From: a virus
Taxonomy: Duplodnaviria; Heunggongvirae; Uroviricota; Caudoviricetes
Reading direction: 5' to 3' (one strand)
Length of the DNA stretch: 5,586 nucleotides
Virus record (IMG/VR): IMGVR_UViG_3300022775_000062
Span: 1-5,586 of that record
Part shown: positions 3,652 to 5,112 of the stretch, piece after piece
Numbering within the stretch: the first letter of the stretch is position 1
How the letters are laid out: each line of letters begins with the position of its first letter
The notes under the pieces: generated by a model
The model's database searches: none
Told to the model about the DNA's origin: nothing
The model's input: the letters and a program-made list of their open reading frames with translations, nothing else
Translations under genes and position numbers: made by a program

Positions 3652-3740
3652 CCGTTTAACTCCGTGGTTAATGGGTGCAACTATTTTCTGTTGGGCAGTA
3701 CATGAGACGCTATTTGATCTGACTGGTCAGTGGATGAAAC
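3652..3740 (-). promoter_or_regulatory. Presumed promoter region for the FI-FII-E-T tail operon
   Basis: This is the non-coding stretch between the upstream intrinsic terminator and the FI start codon, so the operon promoter should be here. I could not find an exact TGT-N12-ACA dyad of the kind recalled for Ogr-activated P2 late promoters, so the call is positional only. Confidence 0.3.
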
Positions 3741-3775
3741 AACAGATAAAGAAAAGGCGGGCAATCAGCCCGCCT
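3741..3775 (-). terminator. Rho-independent terminator downstream of the MFS transporter gene
   Basis: Perfect 8-bp GC-rich stem (plus 3755-3762 aggcgggc, 3768-3775 gcccgcct) with a 5-nt loop aatca. On the minus-strand transcript it is followed directly by UUUCUUUAUCUGUU. It sits about 145 nt past the MFS stop and upstream of the FI promoter region. Confidence 0.6.
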
Positions 3776-3919
3776 GTCATGATTTGCACTCACTCATTTT
3801 CCAACTGACAATTTACATAGCCCAAACGCTATCAAATCTGACAGTCTGCTTTGAGCGAGGAGTGATCATTAGCCTCTCAGCCGGATGCCTTAGAGTACGC
3901 CAGAAATAAAAGGATTGCG

Positions 3920-5112
3920 CTACTGCGCCTTCCTGTTTTGACGGGATGTGGCATATGTCATCGCTACCGCTCCCAGAAGTAACAAACCACTTAAACCAAA
4001 AGCACTTCTCCATCCCAGACTGTCGAATACCAGACCTCCAGCTGTTGAACCAAGTGCAATAAATAACTGAATCACCGCAACCATGAGGCCTCCCCCGTCT
4101 CTGCATCTTCGGGTAACGCGCGTGCTATCCATGTCCACCACCCCGTTGGCGCAGCTGTCGCAAGTAGCCCCCACAGGCTGAGTAGAACGGCAACAGCCCA
4201 GATATGGTGTCCGACCAGCAGTAGCGCACCGGTAATCGCTGCCATAAGCAACGGGATCATGATTAAGGTCTTATAAAATATGGTGTTCAGGAATGTTGAG
4301 ACGATCATTGTGCCGACAAAACCTGCTACGCCTATTGCGAGCAAAATCAGAGAAAGATCAGAAGGTCCCACTCTGGTGACGCTCTCCAGAAAGGGGCGCA
4401 CGTAGGTAAATAAAGCAAACTGTCCCATAAAGAAGAGTCCGCAGGCCAGCAGTCCCGTTGGTACGATGGCAACGCTGAACAGGCGAAGCACAGATCTCTG
4501 TGGCTTTTGTGTTTTATCACTTTCCATCGGAGGCAGACTGACCCATTGCCAGATGAACGCAGCTATCGCAAGGGGGACCAGACATAAAAAGGCCCCACGC
4601 CAACCGATGGTTGTCCCCAGATAGCTACCAAGCGGCGCTGCTACAACGGTGGCCAGCGCGTTGCCGCCGTTAAAAATTGCCAGTGCGCGGGAAACCTGGT
4701 GCTGCGGCACGAGCCGAATGGCGGTTGCAGCCGACATTGACCAGAACCCTCCGATGACAACACCAATCAGAGCCCTCCCCAGCATATAAATCGGATAGTC
4801 AGGTGCTATAGTGATAATTATTCCCGATATGGCCATTAAGACCGTCAGTCCTAGCAAAAGATATTTTCGATCCAGGTCTCCGACAATACGGGAGATAGTC
4901 AGACTGGTAAGCACCGCCAGCGCACCAGAGACAGCAATTCCTTGCCCTGCCAGCCCTTCGGTAACGTGCAAATCATGGGCAATGAGCGTAAGCAGGCTGA
5001 CTGGCATAAACTCAGAAGCGATCAGCACAAACACGCAAAGCGTCATGGCGAATACGCCGCTCCAGTATGCATGCGTTTTTCCGTATGATTGTTTGAGACT
5101 TACAGTGGACAT
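3920..5112 (-). pseudogene. MFS transporter, NepI-like (purine ribonucleoside efflux pump family); frame broken by an apparent 1-nt deletion in the C5 run at 4092-4096
   Basis: ORF 4072..5112 (346 aa) starts at ATG 5110-5112 with an AAGGGGGG Shine-Dalgarno. It encodes a multi-helix hydrophobic protein whose N-terminus and WWTWIARALPEDAE motif resemble E. coli NepI as I recall it. The conserved C-terminus (GGGLMVAVIQLFIALGSTAGGLVFDSLGW...) continues in another frame (ORF 3920..4174) to TAG 3920-3922. One extra G in the coding-strand G5 run would restore a single ~397-aa ORF. Confidence 0.8.

What the first reader, a model, noticed from the sequence alone, without database searches (positions are those of the whole stretch)
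3652..3920. Tail sheath gene abuts transporter and hydrolase genes where a P2-type phage should carry tail-fibre genes and a cargo hotspot
In P2-type genomes the region upstream of FI holds the G and H tail-fibre genes, separated from FI by a variable cargo locus (Z/fun in P2) that has been reported as a hotspot for anti-phage systems. Here the sheath gene is followed instead by a terminator, about 145 bp of non-coding DNA, and co-oriented MFS transporter and hydrolase genes. Either this is the deletion boundary of a prophage remnant, or the hotspot carries unusual metabolic cargo. The latter would be unusual, and the window edge prevents seeing whether tail-fibre genes follow.
Basis: partly seen in the sequence, partly recalled or inferred. 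Interest (0 to 1): 0.5.

Follow-up and report, generated by a model that had tools for sequence, protein, structure and literature searches.

The report
Hydrolase–efflux cargo in P2 tail hotspot
The transporter and hydrolase genes next to the tail-sheath gene are accessory cargo in the known variable spot of an otherwise complete P2-type phage, not a broken prophage edge, and the cargo is bounded by short palindromic repeats that travel with it into other phages, plasmids and genomic islands.

Summary
Sheath gene FI (2461-3651, minus strand) is preceded by its Ogr-dependent promoter, a terminator hairpin (3755-3775) and 144 bp of non-coding DNA. An MFS transporter gene (3920-5112) and the 3' part of an alpha/beta-hydrolase gene (5290-5586) follow.

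Two complete P2-like prophages at different E. coli sites and two deposited Yersinia phage genomes (vB_YpM_115/117) have the same junction. There the order is H, G, LysR regulator, hydrolase, MFS, FI.

The cassette matches no PADLOC defence model. Its hydrolase is 85-94% identical across many Enterobacterales genera, which suggests a LysR-controlled hydrolase/efflux module of unknown substrate.

The same cassette (93-100% identical) also sits in:
- the other P2 hotspot (gpA-gpQ) of a divergent P2-like virus;
- a P1-like contig;
- two other prophages;
- CP4-type islands;
- a Kosakonia plasmid.

Every copy is bounded by the same two palindromes (GTCCGCT-N10-AGCGGAC). One lies at window 3844-3867. 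These belong to a REP/BIME-like repeat family and probably mediate cargo exchange (inferred).

The split ORFs in the window stem from eight homopolymer indels, probably assembly errors.

The parts
1..1454 (-). 5' part of tape-measure gene T (runs off the window). Split into several ORFs by six single-base insertions at 24, 239, 253, 288, 463 and 479.
   Evidence: PhageMin_Tail domain. 97% identity to P2-family T genes. Indel list.
1599..1874 (-). Tail assembly chaperone gene E. The E+E' frameshift product extends further downstream.
   Evidence: Phage_TAC_7. P2 annotation of E and E+E'. RefSeq annotation of the relatives.
1931..2448 (-). Tail tube gene FII, split by a 1-base deletion at 2175.
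   Evidence: Two ORFs match the N- and C-terminal halves of Phage_tube PF04985. Indel.
2461..3651 (-). Tail sheath gene FI, intact, 396 aa.
   Evidence: Pfam sheath domains. The exact protein is listed in 25,082 index blocks of public assemblies. In the eight contexts shown, the content between G and FI varies (five distinct arrangements).
3675..3677 (-). Inferred transcription start of the late F operon (P_F).
   Evidence: Aligns to the annotated P2 start site 24-26 nt upstream of the FI ATG.
3719..3744 (-). Inferred Ogr activator-binding site of P_F (TGT-N12-CCA half-sites, the same spacing as in P2).
   Evidence: Alignment to the P2 NC_001895 'activator binding site' feature.
3755..3775 (-). 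Intrinsic terminator hairpin AGGCGGGC-TGATT-GCCCGCCT followed by a T tail. It is the ancestral terminator of the G (tail-fibre) operon and now also ends the cargo operon.
   Evidence: Terminator scan. In cargo-free P2 prophages the G stop codon lies 2-3 nt from this hairpin.
3777..3870 (.). FI-side arm of the Z/fun hotspot (the 'right inverted repeat' of the GenBank Z-region entries). It is absent from cargo-free P2 prophages.
   Evidence: Homology to AJ512680 right inverted repeat. Inverted repeat I1 with the G-side arm, 36 nt, 81% complementary. Empty-site comparison.
3844..3867 (.). R-type palindromic unit (degenerate here: GTCTGCTTTGAGCGAGGAGTGATC). Homology to cargo-free P2 backbones and to non-P2 copies of the cassette overlaps by about 20 bp here.
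   Evidence: Junction alignment across eight contexts. blastn breakpoints. 25 distinct R copies collected.
3871..3919 (-). Cassette-specific 3' untranslated tail of the MFS gene.
   Evidence: Shared only with other copies of the cassette, not with other P2 phages.
3920..5112 (-). MFS (DHA1-type) efflux transporter gene, 397 aa in relatives. Split in the window by a 1-base deletion in a C run at 4091.
   Evidence: MFS_1. Nearest NCBIfam model is NepI at 278 bits, below its 584-bit cut-off. Nearest solved structure is a chain deposited as 'Sugar efflux transporter', 6KKI. Indel.
5290..5586 (-). 3' end of the alpha/beta-hydrolase gene (378 aa in relatives; runs off the window).
   Evidence: Full-length relative matches PDB 2HDW (PA2218) at E 6e-123. 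GICGWG Cys elbow and signal-peptide-like N-terminus.

Best explanation
The window comes from a P2-type (Peduovirus) genome whose Z/fun hotspot, between tail-fibre assembly gene G and sheath gene FI, carries a 3.7-kb accessory cassette. The cassette has three genes: a LysR-type regulator transcribed divergently, a probably exported Cys-type alpha/beta hydrolase of the PA2218/YcjY family, and a DHA1-type MFS efflux pump.

Shown here:
- The same junction exists in complete prophages and in deposited phage genomes.
- The region between the MFS gene and FI contains, in order, the hotspot's FI-side arm with an R-type palindrome, the ancestral G-operon terminator, the Ogr-dependent P_F promoter, and FI.

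Inferred:
- The cassette is an autonomous 'moron'. In a lysogen the LysR protein would switch on hydrolase and pump in response to a small molecule, giving the host hydrolysis plus export of some ester- or lactone-like compound.
- The backbone terminator keeps this transcription out of the late tail operon.
- The cassette was acquired, and is exchanged, by recombination inside two 24-nt palindromic units with a shared stem (GTCCGCT-N10-AGCGGAC). These bound it in every context. They are members of a REP/BIME-like repeat family and also form the borders of the P2 hotspot.
For: Cargo in intact phages:
- The whole window matches the E. coli Trh52 prophage (98.2%), the CFIAFB20120266 prophage (94.6%, different chromosomal site) and Yersinia phages vB_YpM_115/117 (33.7 and 33.4 kb, 98.2%).
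- In all of them the order is H, G, LysR, hydrolase, MFS, FI.

Hotspot:
- The identical sheath protein is followed by varying content in the eight contexts shown (five distinct arrangements).
- Cargo-free versions exist.
- GenBank Z-region entries annotate the flanking inverted repeats.

Recent spread:
- The cargo is 99.7-100% identical among P2 carriers, while the tail genes differ by 2-5%.

Function:
- Pfam, NCBIfam and PDB assignments.
- No PADLOC hit.
- Hydrolase 85-94% identical across many Enterobacterales genera.
- The K. pneumoniae homologue lies among core genes mpaA, ycjG and tpx.
- A dyad TTAGCA-N7-TGCTAA sits in the divergent regulatory region.

Boundaries:
- Copies in eight non-P2 contexts (nine loci; two CP4-type islands counted as one context), among them a divergent P2-like gpA-gpQ hotspot and a P1-like contig, all start at L002 23826-23844 (window about 3834-3852). 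Those at 93% nucleotide identity or more end at 27539-27576, inside or at the edge of the palindromes. For the two 83% copies blastn homology stops within the genes, and the palindromes were found by motif scan.
- Unrelated cargo genes are flanked by the same units, and multi-cassette arrays R-cargo-L.R-cargo-L occur in P2 hotspots.
- The doublet is multi-copy in intergenic DNA of 258 plasmids. The L unit is found across Enterobacterales and Alphaproteobacteria in BIME-like clusters between ordinary genes.
Against: - The window itself stops inside the hydrolase gene, so its own LysR, G and H genes are not seen.
- Its split ORFs could be real decay and not sequencing error.
- No experiment or paper ties this hydrolase family or this transporter to a substrate.
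- Sigma-70-like promoter matches in the cassette are no more frequent than chance, so autonomous expression is inferred from the gene arrangement only.
- GC content barely differs from the phage (0.51 vs 0.54).
- The palindromes show no compensatory covariation. Pairing of 85-88% equals the shuffle control. Their role may therefore rest on sequence and not on structure.
- Co-transfer of flanks by common descent cannot be fully separated from a causal role in recombination.
- No recombinase has been linked to them.
Confidence: 0.8

Rival explanations
1. The junction is the deletion boundary of a decaying prophage remnant, and the MFS and hydrolase genes are host chromosomal neighbours.
For: Several ORFs in the window are frameshifted. 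The K. pneumoniae homologue of the cassette is chromosomal. The window ends before any tail-fibre gene.
Against: The same junction, base for base apart from point differences, lies inside complete prophages at two different chromosomal sites and in 33-kb deposited phage genomes, with G and H just beyond. In E. coli the cassette is never seen as a fixed chromosomal neighbour: it sits in at least four kinds of mobile element. The indels are mostly homopolymer-associated and clustered at one window end.
Confidence: 0.03
2. The cassette is an undescribed anti-phage defence system, as is common for cargo of P2 and P4 hotspots.
For: Most untested hotspot cargo that has been assayed in P4 turned out to be defensive (PMC13586616). 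A hydrolase plus a membrane protein forms a known defence pair in P4 (PMC9122126). The cassette recurs in several temperate phages.
Against: No PADLOC model hits any of the three proteins. The hydrolase is 85-94% conserved across many genera, and in K. pneumoniae it sits among core metabolic genes beside an aldo/keto reductase. A 12-helix DHA1 efflux pump with a LysR regulator is a typical small-molecule response module.
Confidence: 0.08
3. The palindromic units are the ends of a dedicated mobile-cassette system moved by a specific enzyme. Candidates are a REP-associated or IS200/IS605-type single-strand transposase, an IS110-type enzyme or a tyrosine recombinase. This contrasts with passive short-homology recombination substrates.
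For: The boundaries are sharp in eight contexts. The L then R order and the 12-16-nt spacing of doublets are fixed. Loops are highly conserved. Arrays look like head-to-tail cassettes. An IS110-family transposase lies beside one cluster. Tyrosine recombinase genes lie near two copies. GenBank Z-region records come from a paper whose title proposes site-specific recombination.
Against: No enzyme gene is consistently linked. No target-site duplication was seen at the empty versus filled P2 site. Breakpoints scatter over about 20-40 nt and do not fall at one position. In Alphaproteobacteria the units separate ordinary core genes, like passive REP elements.
Confidence: 0.25
4. The juxtaposition is an assembly chimera joining phage and non-phage reads.
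For: The window shows signs of low consensus quality.
Against: Four independent finished records carry the same junction.
Confidence: 0.01

Closest known systems
Bacteriophage P2 Z/fun locus and the Z-region inserts of P2-like ECOR coliphages (GenBank AJ512676-AJ512685; Nilsson, Karlsson and Haggard-Ljungquist 2004)
   Same: Same position between G and FI. Same flanking left and right inverted repeats. Non-essential 'lysogenic conversion' cargo that differs between otherwise near-identical phages.
   Different: The cargo here is a three-gene regulator/hydrolase/efflux module, not fun(Z) or the ORFs of those entries. I could not read the 2004 paper, so how far it traced the repeats outside phages is unknown to me.
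Phage morons (Juhala et al. 2000; Cumby et al. 2012, as cited in PMC9122126 and the Egorov preprint)
   Same: A self-contained accessory unit between two late operons, bounded by terminators, dispensable for the phage, presumably expressed from the prophage.
   Different: Unusually large, with its own dedicated LysR regulator. Promoter activity was not shown here.
P2 gpA-gpQ (old/tin) defence hotspot (Rousset et al. 2022, PMC9122126; Moura de Sousa et al. 2026, PMC13586616)
   Same: Rapidly swapped cargo, near-identical in unrelated mobile elements. The same cassette occupies this locus in a divergent P2-like viral genome (L026).
   Different: The window's cargo is at the other hotspot and matches no known defence model. 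Those papers do not describe boundary repeats.
REP / BIME repetitive extragenic palindromes of Enterobacteria (own knowledge of the family)
   Same: Short imperfect palindromes, extragenic, multi-copy, in ordered clusters of variant units at gene ends. The L unit scores as terminator-like.
   Different: The sequence is unrelated to the E. coli REP consensus as I recall it. The units are rare in E. coli (377 of 5,426 genomes, one or two places) and there confined to accessory DNA in the three loci inspected. The same 24-mer is shared across bacterial classes. Linkage to a RAYT transposase was not examined.
Integron attC sites and Acinetobacter pdif modules (own knowledge)
   Same: Gene cassettes separated by short imperfect palindromic sites. 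The same cassette appears in many replicons. Arrays occur.
   Different: No integron integrase was annotated in the annotated loci examined. Cassettes can be multi-gene with their own regulator. The unit sequence does not resemble GTTRRRY cores or XerC/D sites on inspection.
PA2218 (PDB 2HDW) and E. coli YcjY (PDB 5XB6) alpha/beta hydrolases
   Same: Clear sequence relatives of the cargo hydrolase (E 6e-123 and 2e-42).
   Different: Both are deposited as hypothetical or uncharacterised proteins. The top-ranked hits of a literature search (12 of 42) gave no sign of biochemistry for either.

Membership tests
P2-like phage (Peduovirus) late tail operon | Gene order FI, FII, E/E', T with high identity to P2-family phages | tested here: met
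   Pfam domains in order. 96-97% nucleotide identity over window 1-3880 to P2, Wphi and other peduoviruses.
P2-like phage (Peduovirus) late tail operon | Ogr-dependent P_F promoter upstream of FI | tested here: met
   Aligns with the annotated P2 activator site and start site. TGT-N12-CCA is retained. Activity was not tested.
Cargo of the P2 Z/fun hotspot | Located between tail-fibre assembly gene G and sheath gene FI of an otherwise complete phage | tested here: met
   Complete prophages L002 and L003 and phage genome L001. Not verifiable for the window's own contig.
Cargo of the P2 Z/fun hotspot | Flanked by the hotspot's left and right inverted repeats | tested here: met
   Inverted repeat I1. 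Homology to the annotated repeats of AJ512680.
Cargo of the P2 Z/fun hotspot | Content varies between phages with the same flanking genes, and empty sites exist | tested here: met
   Eight contexts of the identical sheath protein, with five distinct arrangements between G and FI. Ten genomes with an empty site.
Moron (autonomous accessory transcription unit) | Own promoter and terminator, independent of phage late transcription | tested here: inconclusive
   Divergent LysR gene and a dyad in the 170-bp control region. Terminator-like sites at both ends. Sigma-70-like matches are not above chance.
NepI purine ribonucleoside efflux pump (the name given in the phage records) | Score at or above the NCBIfam equivalog cut-off (584 bits) | tested here: not met
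   277.8 bits. It is an MFS DHA1-type relative, not a NepI orthologue.
Known anti-phage defence systems (PADLOC-DB 2.0) | Any of the three proteins matches a defence model | tested here: not met
   No hits at E up to 0.01.
Dienelactone-hydrolase-type Cys hydrolases | DLH domain and a Cys nucleophile elbow | tested here: inconclusive
   PF01738 at 21.8 bits against a 21-bit cut-off, partial. GICGWG motif at the elbow position. Catalysis was not tested.
REP/BIME-like extragenic palindromes | Short imperfect palindrome, extragenic, many copies per replicon, in ordered clusters of variant units | tested here: met
   622 places in 258 plasmids under no annotated feature. Doublets aligned. 278 units in 495 kb, clusters at a 45-nt period between ordinary genes.
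REP/BIME-like extragenic palindromes | Association with a RAYT (REP-associated tyrosine transposase) | not tested
   No search for RAYT genes was made in the genomes concerned.
Structured RNA or DNA hairpin under selection for pairing | Compensatory changes beyond what sequence conservation gives | tested here: not met
   87.5% and 85.1% of cells are paired, equal to the shuffled controls, with one covarying pair each. No Rfam family.
Integron gene cassette | attC site with RYYYAAC/GTTRRRY cores and a linked intI integrase | tested here: not met
   No integron integrase was annotated in the annotated loci. Core motifs are not evident at the unit borders. This rests on inspection only.

The most novel reading that the evidence does not exclude
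The borders of the P2 Z/fun hotspot are units of a widespread REP/BIME-like palindrome family (stem GTCCGCT/AGCGGAC, a few loop types). These units may be the portable junctions at which gene cassettes are exchanged among P2-like and P1-like phages, lambdoid prophages, genomic islands and plasmids. That would be a concrete mechanism for the rapid cargo swapping whose recombination basis the 2026 P2/P4 study calls unresolved. A stronger version is that a dedicated enzyme recognises the units.
Probability: 0.4. Interest if true: 0.65.

Novelty: new member of a known kind. Interest (0 to 1): 0.42.

Why it matters
P2-like phages are treated as carriers almost only of anti-phage genes. [quoted passage not shown] Another reports auxiliary metabolic and efflux genes in them (PMC13100340).

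This case is a clean example of a regulator/hydrolase/efflux module carried by P2-type phages that are deposited as complete genomes with a named propagation host. The same module recurs in several unrelated temperate phages and islands, so it is either selected as a lysogenic-conversion trait or unusually easy to capture.

The more useful lead is structural. The cassette and many unrelated cassettes are bounded by the same short palindromes that border the hotspot. This gives a directly testable hypothesis for how hotspot cargo is exchanged between unrelated mobile elements.

Tried and rejected
- ERIC/IRU identity of the hotspot arms: only two 10-mers matched the consensus as I remember it, and in the wrong relative orientation, so I dropped it. 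No ERIC reference sequence was available to test.
- Sigma-54 promoter in the L loop (TGGCAC): no TTGC at the required spacing, so rejected.
- Integron attC and XerC/D-type sites: no core motifs or integrase on inspection.
- Structure selection on the hairpins: the covariation counts equal the shuffled controls.
- Rfam: nothing in the window at gathering threshold. Nothing for the repeats at E up to 1. The only hit was a sub-threshold IS009 match elsewhere.
- Fold of the minus strand of 3735-3925: z = -1.8, not remarkable beyond the terminator.
- GC content as a marker of foreign origin: uninformative (0.51 vs 0.54).
- Literature: no paper mentions vB_YpM_115/117. The top-ranked hits of the PA2218/YcjY search (12 of 42 listed) gave no sign of biochemical work on either. 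Nilsson et al. 2004 is not in the library, so its repeat analysis is known to me only through GenBank features and citing papers.
- The source contig could not be identified. The window's exact sheath protein is listed in too many contigs to single it out, and none of the eight shown carries the cassette.
- I did not classify all 103 E. coli carriers individually. I inspected seven.
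Full report
WHAT IS IN THE WINDOW

All genes lie on the minus strand:
- tape-measure gene T, up to 1454;
- E, 1599-1874;
- tube gene FII, 1931-2448;
- sheath gene FI, 2461-3651;
- a 269-bp gap;
- an MFS transporter gene, 3920-5112;
- the C-terminal end of an alpha/beta-hydrolase gene, 5290-5586.

Positions 1-3880 are 96-97% identical to P2, Wphi and many other peduoviruses. 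The gap holds a minus-strand terminator-like hairpin at 3775-3755. 144 bp separate it from the MFS stop codon.

T, FII and the MFS gene are each split into several ORFs. Alignment with three relatives shows eight single-base indels. All three relatives agree against the window at each of them, and most lie in homopolymer runs. Six lie within positions 24-479. This pattern looks like consensus error and not decay, but that cannot be proved from the window.

REMNANT BOUNDARY OR CARGO

The whole window, cargo included, matches four finished records:
- a prophage of E. coli O84:H7 Trh52 (98.2%);
- a prophage of E. coli O170:H18 CFIAFB20120266 (94.6%);
- Yersinia phages vB_YpM_115 and vB_YpM_117 (33.7 and 33.4 kb, 98.2%).

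All four are complete P2-type genomes. Their order is portal to baseplate genes, H, G, then a LysR regulator (divergent), the hydrolase, the MFS gene, then FI, FII, E, T, U, D and ogr.

The two prophages sit at different chromosomal sites (next to pflB and next to yegQ). The vB_YpM series consists of phages isolated by plating on Y. pestis EV76 (PMC11126057). No paper mentions numbers 115 and 117 specifically.

The junction is therefore not a deletion boundary. The genes are cargo of the Z/fun hotspot.

Two more observations show the hotspot directly:
- The window's exact sheath protein occurs in thousands of assemblies. In the eight contexts returned, the content between G and FI varies (five distinct arrangements).
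- Ten complete E. coli genomes have a cargo-free version.

ANATOMY OF 3652-3920

I aligned the region with the annotated P2 reference.
- The P_F transcription start maps to 3677-3675.
- The Ogr activator site maps to about 3744-3719, with the same TGT-N12-CCA half-sites.

In cargo-free prophages the stop codon of G lies 2-3 nt from the GGCGGGC...GCCCGCC hairpin, which is followed by P_F and FI. The terminator at 3755-3775 is therefore the ancestral G-operon terminator. Here it would also end cargo transcription before the late promoter.

Everything from about 3777 outward is accessory. This comprises a 94-bp FI-side arm (3777-3870, corresponding to the 'right inverted repeat' annotated in GenBank Z-region entries), the cargo, and a G-side arm. 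The best inverted repeat in the region pairs window 3835-3870 with the sequence just downstream of G (36 nt, 81% complementary).

WHAT THE CARGO IS

The transporter is a 12-helix MFS_1 protein.
- Its best NCBIfam model is NepI, at 278 bits against a 584-bit cut-off. The 'nepI' label in the phage records is therefore not justified.
- The nearest solved structure is a chain deposited as 'Sugar efflux transporter' (6KKI).

The hydrolase (378 aa) has these features:
- It matches P. aeruginosa PA2218 (PDB 2HDW) at E 6e-123 and E. coli YcjY (5XB6) at 2e-42. Both are uncharacterised.
- It has a signal-peptide-like N-terminus.
- It has a GICGWG elbow, that is, a Cys nucleophile as in dienelactone hydrolases.

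The regulator is a standard LysR protein. A dyad TTAGCA-N7-TGCTAA sits in the 170-bp divergent control region.

None of the three proteins matches a PADLOC defence model. The hydrolase is 85-94% identical in Klebsiella, Citrobacter, Hafnia, Serratia, Kluyvera, Cronobacter, Salmonella and others. In K. pneumoniae the homologous trio lies among core genes mpaA, ycjG and tpx, beside an aldo/keto reductase.

I infer a LysR-controlled hydrolysis-and-export module for an unknown small molecule. The substrate is not known. Promoter activity was not shown: sigma-70-like matches are at chance level.

WHERE ELSE THE CASSETTE OCCURS

At 98% identity or more it is present in 103 of 5,426 complete E. coli genomes, but only two of these have it in P2.

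Other carriers I inspected:
- next to the integrase of another prophage (STEC299);
- in CP4-type islands with Ag43 and CbtA/CbeA;
- at the lom/tail-fibre end of a lambdoid prophage (Rb-50).

At 93% identity it occurs:
- on a Kosakonia cowanii plasmid;
- in a 36-kb divergent P2-like viral genome, between gpA and portal gene Q, which is the other P2 hotspot;
- on a 93-kb contig with DarA and DdrB, probably P1-like.

Among P2 carriers the cargo is 99.7-100% identical while the tail genes differ by 2-5%. This points to recent spread.

THE BOUNDARY PALINDROMES

Every copy of the cassette begins at L002 23826-23844 (window about 3834-3852). Copies at 93% nucleotide identity or more end at L002 27539-27576. 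For the two 83% copies blastn homology stops within the genes, and the palindromes were found by motif scan. P2 phages with other cargo share sequence up to L002 23857 and from 27521. The two kinds of homology therefore overlap by about 20 bp on each side.

The overlaps are two palindromes with the same stem:
- the R type, GTCYGCT-NTGAGCGARR-AGCGGAC, degenerate in the window at 3844-3867;
- the L type, GTCCGCT-CCTGGCACAG-AGCGGAC, next to G.

The same units flank unrelated genes. In P2 hotspots with two cargo modules the layout is R-cargo-L.R-cargo-L (USVAST219, and locus L019).

On plasmids of Pantoea, Duffyella, Rahnella, Erwinia, Enterobacter, Klebsiella and Kosakonia the units occur as 70-nt L-spacer-R doublets in unannotated intergenic DNA, up to 11 per plasmid. 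In E. coli they are rare, at one or two places in 377 genomes. The three such loci I inspected all lie on accessory DNA.

A scan of one genome per species found the exact L unit across Enterobacterales and, unexpectedly, on many contigs of Xanthobacteraceae and other alphaproteobacterial MAGs. There, units with the same stem and a few loop types form ordered clusters at a 45-nt period between ordinary genes such as solute-binding proteins and cytochrome oxidase.

This is the behaviour of REP/BIME-type extragenic palindromes. Rfam has no matching family. Pair counts show no covariation beyond sequence conservation. The units are therefore conserved as sequence, loops included.

HOW IT MOST LIKELY WORKS

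Shown:
- the position of the cargo;
- intact phage relatives;
- the promoter and terminator layout by homology;
- the boundary units and their distribution.

Inferred:
- The cassette is expressed from the prophage under its LysR regulator and benefits the lysogen.
- The ancestral terminator insulates the late tail operon.
- Cargo is gained and swapped by crossovers inside the L and R units.

It remains open whether these crossovers are short-homology or illegitimate recombination at REP-like repeats, or the work of a dedicated enzyme. No enzyme is consistently linked, and no target duplication was seen.

COMPARISON WITH THE LITERATURE

The Z/fun locus is a known mixed-purpose hotspot (bioRxiv 10.1101/2024.10.15.618418). 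Its inserts were deposited in 2004 with flanking inverted repeats annotated.

The large defence hotspot of Rousset et al. 2022 is the gpA-gpQ locus.

[quoted passage not shown] It does not mention boundary repeats. Nor does the Egorov preprint.

I found no description of this cassette as phage cargo.

VERDICT

The finding is real and is resolved in favour of cargo. As such it is a new member of a known kind and moderately interesting.

The lead worth following is the REP-like boundary units. One of them lies inside the reported coordinates.

Noticed in passing
window 24, 239, 253, 288, 463, 479 (insertions); 2175, 4091 (deletions): Eight single-base indels relative to three independent relatives, most of them in homopolymer runs and six of them in the first 480 bases. 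They split T, FII and the MFS gene. The pattern looks like consensus error near a contig or read end.
   Followed up: partly
L026 3834-12099 (IMG/VR UViG_3300048922_000473): The same LysR/hydrolase/MFS cassette (93% nucleotide identity) lies between replication gene A and portal gene Q of a divergent P2-like virus. This is the old/tin defence hotspot, not Z/fun.
   Followed up: partly
L027 6864-14684 (IMG/VR UViG_3300011725_000001, 93-kb contig): The cassette also lies next to DdrB- and DarA-like genes on a contig of P1 genome size, suggesting carriage by a P1-type phage-plasmid.
   Followed up: partly
L040-L119 (genome scan); e.g. L101 984-1097, L115 1938-2052: The exact 24-nt L palindrome of the P2 hotspot occurs in Xanthobacteraceae, Pseudolabrys and other alphaproteobacterial MAGs, and in single Acidobacteriota, Actinomycetes and Nitrosomonadaceae MAG contigs. 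It forms ordered clusters of two or three units with the same stem, different loops and a 45-nt period. Identity of a 24-mer across classes is unexplained.
   Followed up: partly
L082 3151-4176: An IS110-family transposase gene lies about 700 nt from a cluster of the palindromic units. Some IS110-family elements are known to target REP-type repeats (own knowledge).
   Followed up: no
L004 (E. coli STEC299, host Marmota, Qinghai) and L001 (vB_YpM_115, China): A marmot E. coli from Qinghai and Chinese Y. pestis-plating phages carry cassettes 99.2% identical. Other phages of the vB_YpM series were isolated from marmots (abstract of PMC10434027). This may be an ecological link or a sampling coincidence.
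   Followed up: no
L005 10400-11536 (E. coli VTB96959v): In one island copy the hydrolase is annotated as a pseudogene with an internal stop while the MFS and LysR genes are intact.
   Followed up: no
L009 485-2592 and 4392-5390 (Kosakonia cowanii plasmid): Three tandem 'tail fiber protein' genes and a tyrosine recombinase lie a few kb from the cassette on a non-mobilizable 80-kb plasmid. The cassette region there is a chain of palindrome-bounded modules: DUF523, then the cassette, then an aldo/keto reductase with an AraC regulator.
   Followed up: partly
L016 4047-4245: A sub-threshold Rfam match to IS009 (51 bits, gathering 117, E 3e-9) inside the tail-fibre assembly gene of a P2-like prophage whose fibre region is interrupted by ISCro1.
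   Followed up: no
protein P0042: An 87%-identical hydrolase variant named from E. coli O55:H7 CB9615 stands for 1,998 member sequences. A diverged copy of the module may therefore be common in that E. coli lineage. 828 E. coli records matched the cassette at 60-80% identity.
   Followed up: no
L002 27524-27547, minus strand: In the P2 context the L palindrome scores as an intrinsic terminator directly downstream of G (stem of 9 pairs, then ATTGTTTTCA). In cargo-bearing phages it may have taken over termination of the tail-fibre operon from the ancestral hairpin.
   Followed up: partly
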